Source of the DNA: Zootoca vivipara
Taxonomy: Eukaryota
Length of the DNA: 64,000 nt
Assembly: GCF_963506605.1 (NCBI RefSeq)
Contig: NC_083278.1
Span: forward strand, 31,744,001 to 31,808,000
Direction: 5' to 3'
Part shown: positions 30,444-38,399 of the stretch, one piece after another
Numbering within the stretch: the first letter of the stretch is position 1
How the letters are laid out: every line of letters begins with the position of its first letter
Notes under the pieces: model-generated
Told to the model about the DNA's origin: nothing
What the model saw: only the letters and a program-made list of their open reading frames with translations
The model's database searches: none
Made by a program: the position numbers and the translations under genes

Positions 30444-30499
30444 TGAAGTTGGATGGAAATGACGAGGGAATGTTCACTCGTCATTTCCATCCAACTTCA
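30444..30499. repeat. Perfect 23-bp inverted repeat with 10-nt loop
   Basis: TGAAGTTGGATGGAAATGACGAG / CTCGTCATTTCCATCCAACTTCA. Confidence 0.95.
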
Positions 30500-30610
30500 C
30501 ACATACAGAACTGGCATGGATTGGGAATAGACTAATACATCCCATCTGATTTATAGGAGGGAGTCTATGCATATAATCAGCAGACTGAAGTGATTAAACT
30601 TTTTATCACC

Positions 30611-31063
30611 TGTAAGAGAGAGGGCTTGCAGAGAGCAGCCCACTCTGCTTACTTCCATCAGATGGGAGAGCAGCAGCAAGTCTGGGAGTTTAAATCAGGA
30701 ACAGGAAGGGTTAAGACGGGTCCAGGGCTCTGCAGAGTCCTGGTGGCTCAGCTCCAGGCTGGTAGCAGGGAAGCAGGGGAGGAGCTAGCTTCAGCAGGGG
30801 CTGGAAAGGAGGTAGACCGGCACCTCAGGTGCCTGGTTTGGGACCACAGAGGACCCATAGAGCAAGGAGGAGGGGCGTTTGGATGCCCAGGCTTAAAAGG
30901 GGGGTCAGAGCCCACGAGACGCCATTGTGGGCTTCTGCCCCATGCAGAGCAGACATGATTTGAGACATCTCACCACTGTATATAGCATGCACAATAAAAC
31001 TATGAAAATCCAGAGGATGTGTGGAGTGCTTACTCGGGAGTAGCCAACACCCCATCTGTGACA
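30611..31063 (+). repeat. 5' LTR
   Basis: TGTAAG...GTGACA; TATA-like TTAAAA at 30893; AATAAA at 30993. Confidence 0.95.
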
Positions 31064-31065
31064 GC

Positions 31066-31076
31066 AAGCCCACAAT
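31066..31076 (+). promoter_or_regulatory. Self-priming primer binding site
   Basis: AAGCCCACAAT is the exact complement of ATTGTGGGCTT at 30924-30934, the predicted transcript 5' end. Confidence 0.75.
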
Positions 31077-31411
31077 CTTTTGATGGCTACCCCGAGGGAA
31101 GAGGGCTGCAAATGTAGCAGCCGGCATGAAGTTGGCAGCATCTAAAGCAGAAGAGAGAGATGCCAAGGGAGGATTGGCATGTGTGAGGGGAGTAGCAGAG
31201 AGCAAGCTGCAGCCAGCACCCTGCAACTATGGAACGGCTCAAGCACCAGGTAGGCACCCAGGCACAGGGGAAGCCAAGCTTAGTGAACCGAGCAGCTCTG
31301 AACACAGCCAAGCCGGAGGAGCGGAGGCTGGACAAGCAGAGAGGACACTCGGGACGGGCCAGCACTTTGTAGGGCGACCCTCAGCACAAGCTGGCTCTAA
31401 GACTGAGAGGC

Positions 31412-33016
31412 ATGGTGGCGTGGAAGTGCAGGAGGCTGAGAGGCGAGTCCGGGCAGAGGGGACAGACGGAGGGGAAAGGCAGCGGCCACAAGTTCCCATA
31501 CAGTCCCGGGGAGGCAGCTGCAGCACAGCACAGCCCCCTCCAGCCAGATGTGATGCAGAGGGACAAAGCCCGCGCGCGGGTACTTTCAAACGCTGACGCG
31601 GGAAAACAAAGGGAAGAGAAAGGCGGGAGATGCCTTTACAATGCACCCAGCCACTGGGTGGAACACTGCCCCCAGCGGAAGGAATGGCGAGAGCAGGCAG
31701 GCACAGACACAAGCCTGGATGCCAGATCAGGAGGGGAGGGGCCAGGCAGAGCACCAACAACTGAGCCCTCCTGTAACACCCCACAGCACGACAAAGAGAT
31801 GGAAGTAAGTCTGCAGCTGCCAAGAGGCCAGACCCAGGAGACAGTCGGGCTTCTCTGCAGGGGCAGCAGCAATGATTTCCTATCGGTGGACTTTGCTAGG
31901 CAGAATCAGATTCCCCTTTTCCCAAGGAAGCTTCCCATGAGCGTCTCGGCCATAGACGGCAGGGAATTGCAGGAGGGTGAGGTCACGCAACAGACCCCCT
32001 CTCGGAAGATGACAGTGAACAAGCACGCAGAAGTGCTAGCTTTGGACTTAATGGACAATGACCCTGTGGGCAGCCAGCGCCGGGGAGATCTCACCTTTGG
32101 AGATGCAGACGGCAAGGAGCACTGCAGGAAAGAAGGAGAATCCTCAGGATCGCACCACATCAGCTCCCCAGGCGGATGGAACGACGCAGAGGCGGGGATG
32201 CAGGAAGAGAAACTGAGCCAACTCACCAAAGAGGACACTTTTACCCAGAACATACGGAGGGACTTGAGGGAGGGAGAGGGGGCAGGGGAAGGGCTTGCAG
32301 AGAAAGAGGGGTTACTCTTTAGCAATGATGCCCGGTATATGCCCCAGGACTCCCTCAGAGGGAAGATTCTCAGGCAATATCATGACAACCCCACGGAGGG
32401 GCATGCAGTACATGTCTTCACGAGGCTCACACCCAGTAAGGCCAGTCTTGGGCGAAACCCCAGAGCCTTCCCAGAGCAGGGGGAGGGGGAGATTGGGGGA
32501 CCACCTATTGAGGCATGGGGTGAGAGGAGGGAGACAGTACACCAACAACTGGATGGAGACGTGGCAAGGGGCAATGAGGCTTACAAGGAGGGGGCAGACC
32601 ATCACAGGGGACTGGAGAAGGTCTTCCACGGAGGGGACAGGGTCTGGCTGTGGTCAGAAGGCCTTCCCATGGGAGGAAGGGGGAAGAAGCTGGCACCCAG
32701 AAGGCTGGGGCCCTTCAAGGTTCTGACACAGATCAACCCTGTCACCTTCAGGGGGGAAGTACCTACAGCAAGAAAGGTCCATCCCGTGGGTCACAGGTCT
32801 TTGCTCTCACACTTCAGGGAAAGCCCAAGGTTCAGAGGACATGACACACATCCAACACAAGACGCTGACAGGAGGGAGGGGGAGGAAATCACACAAAAGA
32901 CACTAGACAGAAGGGTGGAGGGAGAAGGCAGCCAAGAGGTTCCAGAAAGAAAGGAAGAGGAGGAGGTCTACAGTGCCACAGCGAGCCCGGGCTCCCGAAG
33001 GGGGGAGGGGGGTTAA
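31412..33016 (+). CDS. Minimised Gypsy gag-pro-integrase fusion ORF, 534 aa, catalytically defective
   Basis: Broken Zn knuckle CLY-NAPSHWVEHC, protease-like LLCRGSSNDF, integrase N-terminal HDNPTEGH, GPF motif LGPFKV...VHPVGH; no RT, RNase H or DDE core. Confidence 0.7.
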   Translation: MVAWKCRRLRGESGQRGQTEGKGSGHKFPYSPGEAAAAQHSPLQPDVMQRDKARARVLSNADAGKQREEKGGRCLYNAPSHWVEHCPQRKEWREQAGTDTSLDARSGGEGPGRAPTTEPSCNTPQHDKEMEVSLQLPRGQTQETVGLLCRGSSNDFLSVDFARQNQIPLFPRKLPMSVSAIDGRELQEGEVTQQTPSRKMTVNKHAEVLALDLMDNDPVGSQRRGDLTFGDADGKEHCRKEGESSGSHHISSPGGWNDAEAGMQEEKLSQLTKEDTFTQNIRRDLREGEGAGEGLAEKEGLLFSNDARYMPQDSLRGKILRQYHDNPTEGHAVHVFTRLTPSKASLGRNPRAFPEQGEGEIGGPPIEAWGERRETVHQQLDGDVARGNEAYKEGADHHRGLEKVFHGGDRVWLWSEGLPMGGRGKKLAPRRLGPFKVLTQINPVTFRGEVPTARKVHPVGHRSLLSHFRESPRFRGHDTHPTQDADRREGEEITQKTLDRRVEGEGSQEVPERKEEEEVYSATASPGSRRGEGG

Positions 33017-33435
33017 AATGTCTGATGGCCAGGCAGGACACTCCTGCTTCCCAAAACGCAGAGGCACCTATGCACACCATGCAAGGGGAGGGCCGCACAC
33101 TGGAACTGCACGCTCCTTTCTCCCACAGATCCGAACCACCACATGTCAGTAGCACAGGGGACACAGAGGGGGAGGGCGATCCCAGGTGGGGAGCTTGGGA
33201 GACGCAGACCCAAGGAGCCCTCCGGGAATCGGAAGCAATTGTCCAGAGAGAGGAGGAGGATGACAACGGAGGGAACTACACGGACCAGCCACCCAGCACC
33301 AACTGGGAACAGGATTTTACACACACTACAGCAGAGGAGGAAGACCTGTCAGGCTTCCAGCCCTCTTTACAGACATCAGACCAGGCAACCCAGGCCTCAG
33401 AAAGGGGGGAGGGGGGAGCCTGGAGGGGGAGTGGA

Positions 33436-33888
33436 TGTAAGAGAGAGGGCTTGCAGAGAGCAGCCCACTCTGCTTACTTCCATCAGATGGGAGAGCAGCA
33501 GCAAGTCTGGGAGTTTAAATCAGGAACAGGAAGGGTTAAGACGGGTCCAGGGCTCTGCAGAGTCCTGGTGGCTCAGCTCCAGGCTGGTAGCAGGGAAGCA
33601 GGGGAGGAGCTAGCTTCAGCAGGGGCTGGAAAGGAGGTAGACCGGCACCTCAGGAGCCTGGTTTGGGACCACAGAGGACTCATAGAGCAAGGAGGAGGGG
33701 CGTTTGGATGCCCAGGCTTAAAAGGGGGGTCAGAGCCCACGAGACGCCATTGTGGGCTTCTGCCCCATGCAGAGCAGACATGATTTGAGACATCTCACCA
33801 CTGTATATAGCATGCACAATAAAACTATGAAAATCCAGAGGATGTGTGGAGTGCTTACTCGGGAGTAGCCAACACCCCATCTGTGACA
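33436..33888 (+). repeat. 3' LTR
   Basis: Differs from the 5' LTR at two positions by eye; preceded by PPT GGAGGGGGAGTGGA. Confidence 0.95.
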
Positions 33889-35861
33889 TCACCATTCCAT
33901 TCTGTGGGTGGTAGATCATTGGTTTGAACGCTACCCCACAGAGAAAAGTTCCTGAACACAGATTCATAGTGAATCTGGCTACTGAACGCTTCTCCCTGCT
34001 AAAGGGCCCTATGCATATTATTGTAATTATGCTGCATGATTCATGCAATTTGACTCTTTATTATTCGGGGTTGGCCTGTCCCTGGACAGTTGAGGTTGTG
34101 GACAGGAAATGGTTAAAGTGCAAAGACTCTGTAGAGTCACCCTGAAAATTCAATATCTTTTGCTGAATTTTAATACATTAGCTATTCCTCTCCCACCCAG
34201 CTCTAGGAAGATAAACCTGTGATATTGTTTTCTTTTTGCTATTTGGTTTATGTTTACAAAGTATTTAAAATGTCAGTTTCATCGATTCTGTCTGTTTTAC
34301 GTGGATCATTTTGTTGGGAACTGCAGTTACTGCTGTTGGGGGGGGGGAGCTTCACATTTTGAAAATGTTGTCAAATCAGTTCTCAGTAGCAACTATTGTT
34401 TAATAGGCATGAAAAGAAGAGAATGCTCCTATAGGGAAGTCTTGTTCATTTTGAATCTGATAGTAAAGAGAGGGATTTGTTGAGTGTCTCTAGTCAGGAG
34501 TTATCAAAGACGGCATTCAAGGTAAGCCTTTATTCTCACATCAGTGAGAGAACTGTACAGTTGAGGTGTAATTGAAGGGATGTAGTGATTAACATGTTCT
34601 TAAAGGTCCTAGTCCTCGGTTGTGTAGCTGGTGTGGTAGAGCAAAAGACATTGGTTTGCCCTTAATTCTGCATTTCAAGAGGGCCACAATCATTGCAAAG
34701 AAAAAGACACACCCTATTTCTTCACAATTGCTATCTATTACTTCATTGGATGGTGCTTAATTTAATGACTCAATATTTTTTCCCTGCCTGCAAATATTTG
34801 ATTTTTTTTCAGAACTGATGGAGAAAACAAGGGGCTCTGAATGGAATTAAAATCAACGTACATGTATGAAGTATCCCCCCAAAGAAGCTTTACTATCTGT
34901 TGTACTAACTACGACAAAATGAGGCATGACCATTCACACAAAGCCATCAGCTCTCAAATCCACATGATGAAGCTTAATTCCTTTTAATGGCTTTAGGATT
35001 GAAGCATTAGATGAGCAATTCCAGAGAGTACACATAATCATGGTTATCACCACCGTTTTCTATTTGTGGCGCCTTTTATTCTTGTTCTTACTTTTTAAAT
35101 GCAAGAAGATACCATGACTTATCAAGGCAAATGCCTCCCATTTATCAGTACTCTTCCTAAATTACCAAGGCTCAATTTGAATGCTGAAAAGTTGTTCGGG
35201 GTGTTTGGGAAGCTTATGGAAACACATAATGAAGTGGTACAGTAACTTGTCCATATGGGCTGAAGAATTGGGACACTGAAGCCTATCTCACCCCATTTGC
35301 TCTCAATCTGTAGTTCAATGTGAATTGTTTGCATGAGAGATTTGAAAGTGCAATGGTTGGTGGCAACTCTCCCTACAAAAGAGGAAAAAACAGAGTTTCC
35401 ACTATTGCCTTCCCAATAACTGAAAACTTCCCAAGTAGATGGTTTAGGTTTTTTACAGCAGTATAAAAGAAGCAGTTTGTTCATCTCCCCACCCCCTGCA
35501 GCCCTAGGGGGACCCACTGATAACCAATCAAATTAGTATTGCATTCTATGCTTTATGGGGGGGGGGGTTAAAGTGACAAAAGCACATTTTCTCATGTCCC
35601 TGTTTTGCTTAAAATAGATGTTCAGCTAATCTGTATTTATACCAGAGAATAAAATCACATTTCTCAAGACATGATACTATAATTAACTTATTTGCACACT
35701 GCATATAGTCAACTCTCATTAACTAATGAAATGCATCGGATATGTTTGCACTGTATGAGTACGTTCCTGTGAAAGTAACCCTTTGGAAGCCAGTTGTCAC
35801 GAAGCCACAATGGGCAATAAAGGATTTGTGCAAGAATGGTACCATTGACCTAATCACTAAT

Positions 35862-35992: not shown

Positions 35993-37453
35993 AAGAGCTT
36001 ATGATTGTAAGGGTTCACAGGCAGCAATAACAAGACCAGGATGATCCAATGGGTATGGATTTTTAACATAAAAGCTCAAAAGTTTTACTATTTTGTACAG
36101 GACTAATTTGTACCAGGGGAGCATGCTGTATGAATTCATGCCTCCACATTGCTAAAACCTACGAGTTATTTTTATGAGCCTGGACATGTCTTGGAGTTAT
36201 TCTGTATTGATTGTTTTCACCAGTTCCTCAGAGCCGATTCAAGGAAAGGCACAAAAATCTGAACATTTCCCTCAGTTGAAAAACAGCAATAAATGCTACT
36301 GCTGATTAGGGATAGATGGACCAACGTGTTTCCAAAACCAGCTCCATTTTGACCTGTTTGTGGGTGAACATTTGCTGGCTGGTGCTGATGCAGATTGTAG
36401 ATTGAAACATCTGGAGGGCACCAGGTTGAGGACAGCTGCTCTTGTCCTCTTTCAGATGCTTGTCCTGCTTTCAGATACCCGAATTATAAGCTAGGTTTCT
36501 TTTGTGCAGTTAACATGCTTGCTGCTGTGACTGCTGTAGCTCTATGGTATGATATATGTGTTCTCCATAATGGCAAGCTTCCCTGGGTCTTTTTGTATAT
36601 GTAGAACTCCCCCTTTCATGGGGAAAAAACAAACATACCACAAGAGCAGCTTTAAAATTCATAGCTGAAGTTGCCCTCACAACAAAAACCAAAGATTATA
36701 ATTCTTTAGAGGACGTGATGCATCGGTAACACCAACAAACTGATTTTCTATATAGCTATGTGCATCATGTTGCATTCAGGAGGCTAAGAAGGTTCTTTTA
36801 AAATCCACCCACACAAATCATTACGTACTGTATTATATTAAATTATATTGATTCATGAAGCTATATCTGTGGTGTAACTTGCTGGAAGGGATATGTGCAG
36901 GTAATTTTTCTCCTGGTCTATACTGTAGAATTATGAGCATGAAAGATTGGAGGGAAGATTATTTTCTATTTATATACCATCGCTGTTAATGACTATTTTT
37001 CACCTTTTGCAAGTTTTCTTTAATAAACAAAAACAACTAAAGATACAGTGTAGGAGGCAAACAATAAGCCACACTTCTCTCCCAATAAGCTCTCCTCCTC
37101 CCTTGCACCGTTTTTGCTTCTGCACGGCTCCAGAGTTCAAACTTGTAAGGTAAACGTGGATCTGCAGCACCAGCAGGGCTATAAATAAGCAACAAGGATG
37201 GGAATATGTTTGGTGGAAGTGACTGGCAAGGATTGGCACTCTTTCAGGGCTGTGTATCAGTCAGGGGAGGGGGGGGGAAAGCATGTTCTTCCCTCCTTAA
37301 TCAATAAGGAAGATGCTCCATCTCTGTCTACATCTTGATAAGTGGCTGGGCCAAGTACAGGTTAGTCAGTTTACCTGTCTGGCAGGTGACATTGTTTTGT
37401 TTAGTTAGTATTTATTTATATGCCACATTTCGGCCAAAAAAAGGGCCTCCAAG

Positions 37454-38399
37454 AAGATAGAAAAATAGGTTTTGAGGATAAAAGATCCAAATTTCAAATA
37501 GAAGTGCTAGAAGGCAAAACAAAGCTTTTGGCAAAGATGTATGATCTGTTGTTGGAGTGGTATACAAAAGATGAGTTGACAAAAGAAGTGATGATTAAAT
37601 GGGCAAAAGATTTGGGGCATAATATTGAATATGATGCGTGGTTGAAATTATGGAATCAAACTTTAAGATTTACAGCATGTACTGCCTTGAAAGAAAATGT
37701 ATATAAGATGATGTACAGATGGTATTTAACTCCAGTTAAGTTAGCTAAAATGTATAGAATGGGTGATAAAAGTTGCTGGAAATGTAAAGAGAAAGATGGT
37801 GAATTTTATCATATGTGGTGGACATGCGAAAAAGTTAAAAGATTTTGGGAAAGTTTATATAATGAATTGAAAAAGATGTTTAGATATACCTTTCCAAAAA
37901 AACCAGAAGCATTTTTGTTAGGAATAATAGGAGGAGAGATTAGAAAAGAAGATCAAACACTGTTTATGTATGCAACAACCGCGGCTAGGACTTTGTTAGC
38001 CCAAAAATGGAAATTACAGGAATTACCTACAATTGTGGAGTGGCAGATAAAAATGATGGACTATGCTGAACATGCTAGATTGACATGCAAGATTCGTGAC
38101 CAGGGGGAGACAAGGTTTCAAAAGGACTGGAGTAAATATGTGGACTATATGGAGAAAAACTGTAGATCATTAAAAACTCTCGCAGGACTAAAATAAACCT
38201 TACGAATTGACCAATATGTTAAAAAAGGAACTGCAAAAAAAAGGAATTAACAAGAAACCCGCATGAAGGGAGGGGGGGAAGTCATAGCTCGGCGGAGCAA
38301 GGTAAAAGATGTGAACATAAGATTTTGTATAAAAGATTGGTTTTGTTAATTTGTTGAATTTGGAAAATTGGAATAAAATGTATTTAAAAACAAAAAAAC
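37454..38399 (+). mobile_element. L1 LINE, 5'-truncated and young
   Basis: Open ORF2 C-terminus with CWKC...HMWWTC zinc knuckle (stop at 38196), AATAAA, poly-A tail, TSD AAAAAAAGGGCCTCCAAG at 37436-37453 and 38400-38417. Confidence 0.93.

What the first reader, a model, noticed from the sequence alone, without database searches (positions are those of the whole stretch)
30893..31076. tRNA-independent self-priming signature in a young non-autonomous Gypsy element
There is no TGG-type tRNA PBS after the 5' LTR. Instead AAGCCCACAAT (31066-31076) is exactly complementary to ATTGTGGGCTT (30924-30934), which starts 31 nt after the TATA-like TTAAAA at an initiator-like CCATT. This matches the established Tf1/sushi mechanism, in which the first 11 nt of the transcript fold back to prime reverse transcription. 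The LTRs differ at only 2 of 453 positions by eye, so an element lacking RT seems to have been mobilised recently in trans using its own RNA primer. The TSS position is inferred.
Basis: partly seen in the sequence, partly recalled or inferred. Interest (0 to 1): 0.75.

Follow-up and report, generated by a model that had tools for sequence, protein, structure and literature searches.

The report
Self-priming passenger retrotransposon in a lizard
This is one of about 130 young copies of a lizard jumping gene that has lost its copying enzyme and likely starts its DNA copy with the first 11 bases of its own RNA, a known trick of its group, likely using the enzymes of a related active family.

Summary
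Confirmed. Window 30611-33888 is a 3.3-kb Gypsy element (453-nt LTRs, 2 mismatches, TSD TCACC) whose PBS (31066-31076) is the exact complement of LTR 30924-30934. It belongs to a young family of about 130-145 copies lacking RT, RNase H and integrase core; no same-LTR autonomous parent was found. A related active 5.8-kb chromovirus family (about 830 copies) shares its ends but uses different 11-mers, each complemented in its own LTR: seven paired variants in all. Aberrant insertions record the pairing in vivo: three fold-back products, 19 copies with LTR-templated bases beside the PBS, and one copy of this family whose duplicated end stops exactly after the 11-mer. A U5-leader helix completes the Tf1 'pretzel'. 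RNA-seq shows sense transcription and is compatible with, but does not map, the start at 30924. The mechanism is the published Tf1/sushi one, already proposed for vertebrates, and this scan found similar non-autonomous self-primers on other DNA. New here: genomic fossil evidence in a reptile, a likely helper with a different primer, and a long dead-domain ORF that may be kept open by selection.

The parts
30606..30610 (+). left target-site duplication TCACC
   Evidence: repeated at 33889-33893
30611..31063 (+). 5' LTR, 453 nt, TG...CA
30893..30898 (+). TATA-like TTAAAA, 31 nt upstream of the predicted start
   Evidence: function inferred; the autonomous family has no such hexamer at this place
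30924..30934 (+). predicted self-primer = first 11 nt of R (predicted TSS at A30924)
30935..30937 (+). CTG, predicted to pair with CAG 31062-31064 (pretzel helix upstream of the PBS, one bulged C)
   Evidence: (33 of 36 cells paired, no covariation)
30993..30998 (+). AATAAA in R (used at the 3' LTR, 33818-33823)
   Evidence: sequence; invariant columns
31033..31046 (+). U5 arm of the U5-leader helix
   Evidence: 12 bp, one bulge, -21.8 kcal/mol
31064..31065 (+). GC spacer between LTR end and PBS
   Evidence: present in 72 of 73 copies and in the autonomous family
31066..31076 (+). primer-binding site complementary to the element's own R start
31084..31096 (+). leader arm of the U5-leader helix
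31126..31596 (+). short ORF from the ATG at the position of the relative's gag start; no Pfam match
31373..33016 (+). 547-codon frame: gag C-terminal/zinc-knuckle remnant, protease remnant without its catalytic motif (31697-32149), integrase N-terminal remnant (32114-32404), integrase C-terminal SH3 (32633-32815); broken in this copy at a G-run near 33010
32869..33783 (+). continuation of the frame: decayed chromodomain and acidic tail running through U3 into R of the 3' LTR
33422..33435 (+). polypurine tract, nearly identical to that of the autonomous family
33436..33888 (+). 3' LTR
33889..33893 (+). right target-site duplication TCACC

Best explanation
This is a young copy of a non-autonomous Tf1/sushi-type Gypsy family lacking reverse transcriptase, whose RNA likely folds its first 11 bases onto the complementary site behind the LTR, is likely cut after base 11 by a borrowed RNase H, and likely uses that piece as primer, the enzymes likely coming from a co-resident active 5.8-kb chromovirus family. 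Steps: (1) transcription from A30924 (inferred; indirect support); (2) three-helix 'pretzel' fold: primer:PBS, CTG:CAG, U5:leader (primer:PBS pairing shown by covariation and fossil products, the others predicted); (3) cleavage and extension through GC into U5 (by analogy with Tf1; junction sequence seen in fossils); (4) the plus strand copies the primer, so the PBS is re-templated from the LTR at each cycle, which turns one LTR mutation into a matched pair (inferred); (5) integrase-type insertion with 5-bp TSD (shown). Helper identity is the weakest step (about 0.7).
For: Perfect 11/11 in 66 of 73 two-LTR copies, TSD in 63 of 73, identical LTRs in 37 of 73 (85 regions examined). Seven different PBS 11-mers each matched by their own LTR; on 12 hand-picked representatives 7 of 11 positions change on both sides and slid controls fall to 25-47% paired. 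An older lineage shows a different 10/10 pair in 6 of the 8 loci with a PBS. 28 of 30 chance pattern hits reach at most 9/11. Fossils among 27 junctions with a non-C base after the PBS: 3 LTR-PBS-inverted-U3 fold-backs (TSD seen for L167, L175), 19 normal copies with a G (often GGC, or the complement of the copy's own LTR variant, L176) scattered over the tree, and L153, a copy of this family whose duplicated LTR end stops after exactly 11 PBS bases. Protein search: 146 of 150 scored places are 81-100% identical, the next 4 are 59-64%; 34 of 34 LTR pairs among the first 100 of 415 motif hits are 2.4-3.1 kb apart. The autonomous family has gag, PR, RT, RNase H, IN, SH3 and chromodomain, LTR identity 98-100% and the same LTR ends, spacer and PPT. 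Sense RNA covers the whole element in run X18 (741 reads); depth has its local minimum in the bin holding the predicted start.
Against: No read pile-up at the predicted start; one run, 6% read. In plain thermodynamic folding the primer:PBS helix is not dominant for this copy (mean pair probability 0.04; above 0.6 in 7 of 12 leaders) because it competes with the U5-leader helix, with which it forms a pseudoknot the program cannot model. Seven of 73 copies lack a perfect pair, four sharing a change at the last PBS base; five autonomous-type copies have uncompensated mismatches or truncated LTRs and no full match. None of the 22 G-extension or fold-back fossils is from this family; its direct evidence is one event. 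The U5-leader helix has only 1 of 7 aligned pairs with a two-sided change. The candidate helper aligns at only 69% over the integrase end and 74% over 117 nt of R-U5-PBS; only 150 of 2649 candidates were scored in the parent search.
Confidence: 0.86

Rival explanations
1. Self-priming is right, but the helper is a closer autonomous parent with the same LTR that is rare, unassembled, polymorphic or recently lost, not the 5.8-kb family found here.
For: The family is only 59-64% identical in protein to the nearest autonomous copies; the parent search scored 150 of 2649 candidates and 315 of 415 LTR hits were not listed.
Against: Clean identity gap; all 34 listed LTR pairs short; the three long copies carry nested inserts, not their own pol; dead-domain sequence is shared by all copies, so the loss predates the present burst.
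Confidence: 0.2
2. A host tRNA or tRNA fragment primes, and the LTR match is incidental.
For: A tRNA-like T-arm stretch matches the primer at 9 of 11 positions and could pair through two G:U pairs; the tRNA set examined was partial.
Against: No TGG; cannot explain seven PBS variants each mirrored in its own LTR, LTR-templated bases beside the PBS, or fold-backs that require the plus strand to end in the 11-mer.
Confidence: 0.03
3. The primer comes from another molecule or from the 3' R copy (inter-molecular or 3'-end priming) rather than from the 5' end of the same RNA.
For: R is present at both ends; fold-back products and G extensions could come from a primer with an upstream tail.
Against: The base after the PBS stays C in 71 of 73 copies although the LTR base before the primer would template G; PBS follows the passenger's own LTR, not the helper's (4 of 11 bases differ); DNA fold-back of the plus strand explains the inverted products without a long primer.
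Confidence: 0.08
4. The copies spread by DNA duplication and the self-priming signature is only an inherited relic.
For: None specific.
Against: Distinct 5-bp TSDs in 63 of 73 copies, identical LTR pairs with subfamily-specific changes in both LTRs.
Confidence: 0.02

Closest known systems
Tf1/sushi group of Ty3/gypsy chromoviruses (Tf1, Tf2, Tj1, Tosmo1-3, Tcry1, pufferfish sushi-ichi); PMC10085805, PMC6317226, PMC4600332, passages read
   Same: PBS complementary to the 5' end of R, three-duplex 'pretzel' potential, SH3_Tf2-1 and (in the autonomous relative) chromodomain, 5-bp TSD, plus strand ending in a PBS copy (described for Tf1 cDNA in PMC11042837, passages).
   Different: Non-autonomous, RT/RNase H and integrase core deleted; squamate host; primer differs from the likely helper's at 4 of 11 bases; ORF runs through U3 into R in both families.
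Mouse IAP 1-delta-1 subtype (PMC6466679, passage)
   Same: Non-autonomous LTR element with in-frame internal deletion giving a gag-pol fusion ORF; for IAP the fusion acts in cis to help retrotransposition.
   Different: IAP is a class II endogenous retrovirus, tRNA-primed (recalled), nearly identical to its helper; here a cis role of the ORF is only suggested by statistics.
ETn/MusD and VL30/MLV passenger-helper pairs (PMC6466679, passages)
   Same: Passenger mobilised in trans and about as young as its helper.
   Different: Retroviral and tRNA-primed (recalled); the passenger here brings its own primer.

Membership tests
Tf1/sushi self-priming chromoviruses | PBS of 10 nt or more, 0-5 nt behind the 5' LTR, complementary to a stretch of the LTR (criterion in PMC6317226) | tested here: met
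   11/11 at offset 2; 66 of 73 copies
Tf1/sushi self-priming chromoviruses | No tRNA-type PBS | tested here: met
   No TGG; no exact match in 30 distinct tRNA-like sequences, best 9/11 internal; set partial
Tf1/sushi self-priming chromoviruses | Self-primer lies at the 5' end of the transcript | tested here: inconclusive
   Depth minimum in the right 16-nt bin but no pile-up; fossil L153 ends at base 1
Tf1/sushi self-priming chromoviruses | Two further duplexes flanking the PBS ('pretzel', PMC10085805) | tested here: met
   CTG:CAG 3 bp and U5:leader 12 bp or more in both families; predicted, weak covariation
Tf1/sushi self-priming chromoviruses | Chromodomain at the integrase C-terminus | tested here: met
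   PF00385 over cut-off in the autonomous relative; only a decayed homologous stretch in this element
Tf1/sushi self-priming chromoviruses | RT/IN phylogeny groups with Tf1 and sushi-ichi | not tested
   No reference Tf1/sushi proteins were fetched; best solved relative of the autonomous pol is Ty3 Gag-Pol, E 8e-140
Tf1/sushi self-priming chromoviruses | RNase H cleavage releases the primer | not testable with these tools
   Needs biochemistry
Non-autonomous LTR retrotransposon | Lacks RT/IN yet has intact LTRs, PBS, PPT, TSD and many same-structure copies | tested here: met
Non-autonomous LTR retrotransposon | Identified helper | tested here: inconclusive
   Candidate shares ends and age; mobilisation not shown

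The most novel reading that the evidence does not exclude
A long-lived parasite lineage that rides a helper only about 65% alike: the helper's RNase H reads the pretzel shape, not the primer sequence, the PBS is rewritten from the capped 5' end each cycle (the conserved C after the PBS being a copy of the cap), and the passenger must keep an 800-codon frame of dead domains open to the poly(A) region for its RNA to survive or be packaged. The fold-back and G-extension insertions would then be the first in vivo record of Tf1-type priming in a vertebrate.
Probability: 0.35. Interest if true: 0.6.

Novelty: new member of a known kind. Interest (0 to 1): 0.38.

Why it matters
Vertebrate self-priming appears in the papers read here as a prediction from sequence, with experiments only for fission-yeast Tf1. 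This genome holds two co-active families with different primers and hundreds of near-identical copies whose rare errors show the primer register in vivo, so cleavage specificity and sequence tolerance can be asked on a 200-nt RNA. Self-priming also frees an element from tRNA-fragment control of its PBS (inference). The finding itself is an expected feature of its clade.

Tried and rejected
Unconstrained folding was uninformative because the structure is pseudoknotted. The run search listed no RNA holder by index; raw RNA runs were laid instead. X16 and X17 gave too few reads (59 and 74) for a start site. Rare PBS-like pattern hits L106, L110-L112 and 28 of 30 loci are not element PBSs. The idea that the G-run at 33000-33015 is a relic PPT plus old LTR was dropped: it lies inside the homologous integrase tail. 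Three long copies (L209, L220, L230) were checked as possible parents and are nested insertions. The ORF1 line used a wrong frame and is ignored. Amino-acid selection on the long ORF was not found (omega about 0.8-0.9). The primary papers (Levin 1996, Lin and Levin 1998, Butler 2001, Atwood-Moore 2006, one review) were not held, so their content is taken from citing passages; Butler 2001 may already list reptile elements. Searches for a squamate or non-autonomous vertebrate case (listings seen) showed none, in a library lacking most subscription journals.

Full report
Observation. The element spans window 30611-33888. Its LTRs are 453 nt, start TG, end CA, differ at 2 positions and are flanked by TCACC. 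After the 5' LTR come GC and AAGCCCACAAT, the exact complement of LTR bases 30924-30934, which begin 31 nt after TTAAAA. A match this long arose in 17 of 20000 resampled LTRs. The host is a lizard: a protein 96% identical to the main frame is annotated by NCBI from Zootoca vivipara (P0001).

Anatomy. Against an autonomous relative from the same genome, the element keeps the gag end, a protease remnant without its catalytic motif, the integrase N-terminal remnant, the SH3 region and the tail; pol residues about 181-654 (RT and RNase H) and 750-943 (integrase core) are gone. Pfam finds only SH3_Tf2-1 over cut-off.

Family. A PBS-junction pattern gives 137 hits, 92 of the first 100 listed being this 11-mer; an LTR-start motif gives 415. 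Of 85 regions examined, 73 hold two LTRs; 63 of these have an exact 5-bp TSD, 37 have identical LTRs and 70 have at most 3 mismatches; 66 have a perfect primer:PBS pair. The seven exceptions are one primer change present in both LTRs, five single PBS changes (four alike, at the last base) and one deletion. No parent with this LTR was seen: 146 of 150 scored protein hits are 81-100% identical and the other 4 are 59-64% (2649 candidates); all 34 LTR pairs in the first 100 motif hits are 2.4-3.1 kb apart; three long copies hold nested inserts.

Likely helper. A Pfam SH3 search turned up a large young family of 5.8 kb with 428-nt LTRs, a gag frame and a 1379-codon pol with PR, RT, RNase H, IN, SH3 and chromodomain. 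A looser junction pattern counts 971 sites against 0 for the reversed control, so about 830 belong to it by subtraction. In 8 of 9 fetched copies where LTRs were delimited they are 98-100% identical, and LTR end, GC spacer and PPT match the passenger's; DNA similarity is otherwise low (69% over the integrase end, 74% over R-U5-PBS). An older sushi-like lineage has different ends and 82-95% LTR identity, which makes it a worse candidate. That the young family is the helper is inference.

Covariation. Seven distinct PBS 11-mers are each fully complemented 138-153 nt upstream in their own LTR: two in the passenger family and five in autonomous lineages. On 12 representatives that I picked for being complementary, all 132 primer:PBS cells pair, 7 of 11 positions change on both sides, 0 of 500 shuffles reach the covariation score, and slid registers drop to 25-47%; the picking inflates these numbers. 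Against: L104, L109, L114 have one mismatch, and L113, L115, L116, L119 have truncated or imperfect 5' LTRs. The older lineage has another pair, 10/10 in 6 of 8 loci. Such matched changes need no double mutation: if the plus strand copies the primer, one LTR change is written into the PBS in the next cycle (inference; Tf1 cDNA ending in a PBS copy is described in PMC11042837, passages).

Fossils of the reaction. They are scattered over a tree with 7 ordinary copies, and near-identical sisters differ in them, so they arise per insertion, from upstream starts or brief fold-back. One hit, L153, is from the passenger family: LTR, GC, exactly 11 PBS bases, then a jump into U3 with 1 nt of homology, placing the primer's 5' end at the base equivalent to 30924. 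The remaining four are three single substitutions and one chance hit.

RNA fold. PMC10085805 (passage) describes a central primer:PBS duplex and two flanking duplexes. Here CTG after the primer can pair with CAG across the LTR end, and U5 31033-31046 pairs with leader 31084-31096 (-21.8 kcal/mol); the autonomous leaders have the same helix with other outer bases (-22.6 to -25.6). The two long helices cross, so nested folding picks one or the other.

Expression. In 6% of run X18, 741 reads cover the element, nearly all in one direction, read as sense for a usual stranded library; X16 and X17 gave 59 and 74 reads. On a copy of the expressed subfamily, depth falls from 94 in U3 to 33 in the 16-nt bin that holds the predicted start, rises to 56 in R and falls to 20 after the PBS; no pile-up of ends marks the start. 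Compatible, not decisive.

tRNA rival. Among 30 distinct tRNA-like sequences of 10 anticodon types the best match to the primer is 9 of 11, inside the T arm. The set is partial, but tRNA priming cannot account for the covariation or the fossils.

Retained ORF. All four remnants lie in one frame in copies such as L081 (816 codons, 0 stops against 18 and 22 in the other frames), ending in R of the 3' LTR as the autonomous pol does. 41 of 67 copies of 3.0-3.4 kb are open across the internal part; 26, this window's included, are broken (7 of 74 rearranged copies dropped). Nonsense alleles number 7 against 19 expected (rough Poisson p 0.002; control frames 23 vs 22 and 13 vs 19), two shared indel pairs restore the frame (26+13 nt in 58 copies, 1+8 nt in 5), while shared frameshifts inside reach at most 6 copies; omega is 0.8-0.9. 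Copies were chosen partly through a protein search and the test is not tree-aware, so this is suggestive of selection for an open frame, as for IAP 1-delta-1 (PMC6466679, passage), not proof.

Comparison and verdict. Self-priming is the stated common feature of the Tf1/sushi group, shown for Tf1 and implicated from fungi to vertebrates (PMC4600332, PMC6317226, PMC10085805; passages only; PMC3601003, PMC5341516 and PMC6934838 also seen as passages). Eight literature searches (listings) showed no squamate or non-autonomous vertebrate example, but the primary papers were not available. This scan has reported non-autonomous self-primers on other DNA. The element works like Tf1 and meets the sequence criteria of the group; the phylogenetic and biochemical criteria were not tested. 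New member of a known kind, unusually well documented; interest 0.38.

Noticed in passing
L268:7634 to L269:3893 (G000:C12), also L105, L224, L228, L231, L234-L236: A young 6.3-kb endogenous-retrovirus-like element (439-nt identical LTRs, TGG-type PBS, retroviral RNase H-integrase and further frames) carries 1.18 kb captured from this Gypsy passenger family (171 nt of U3 joined to 1008 nt of internal sequence, 98% identical) where gag-pro-RT would be; seven loci share the piece. A retrovirus/Gypsy recombinant that has itself multiplied.
   Followed up: partly
L072-L080, e.g. L080:1923-7732: Very active autonomous chromovirus family, about 830 PBS junctions, many long pol frames; pol runs through the whole 3' U3 and stops about 20 nt into R, with an acidic repeat tail after the chromodomain.
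   Followed up: partly
window 31077 and equivalents in L062-L080: The base after the PBS is C in all three lineages although it cannot pair with the LTR base before the primer (C or T); it may be templated by or pair with the cap. Untested.
   Followed up: partly
L103: Both LTRs are followed by spacer, PBS and leader: tandem elements sharing an LTR, like the PBS-directed tandem insertions described for Tf1 in PMC11042837.
   Followed up: no
L233:746-866: 56-nt tandem duplication of PBS and leader at a leader site resembling the LTR end, probably a mis-registered strand transfer.
   Followed up: partly
L220:1975-6937: A complete different Gypsy element with identical LTRs is nested in a passenger copy.
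   Followed up: no
window 30444-30499: Perfect 23-bp inverted repeat with a 10-nt spacer, 110 nt upstream of the element; origin unknown.
   Followed up: no
window 37405-38196: 263-codon frame that reads like the 3' end of a LINE ORF2 (recalled resemblance); no Pfam match.
   Followed up: no
L062-L071: Older sushi-like lineage with a 10-nt self-primer, GT spacer and LTRs of variable length.
   Followed up: partly
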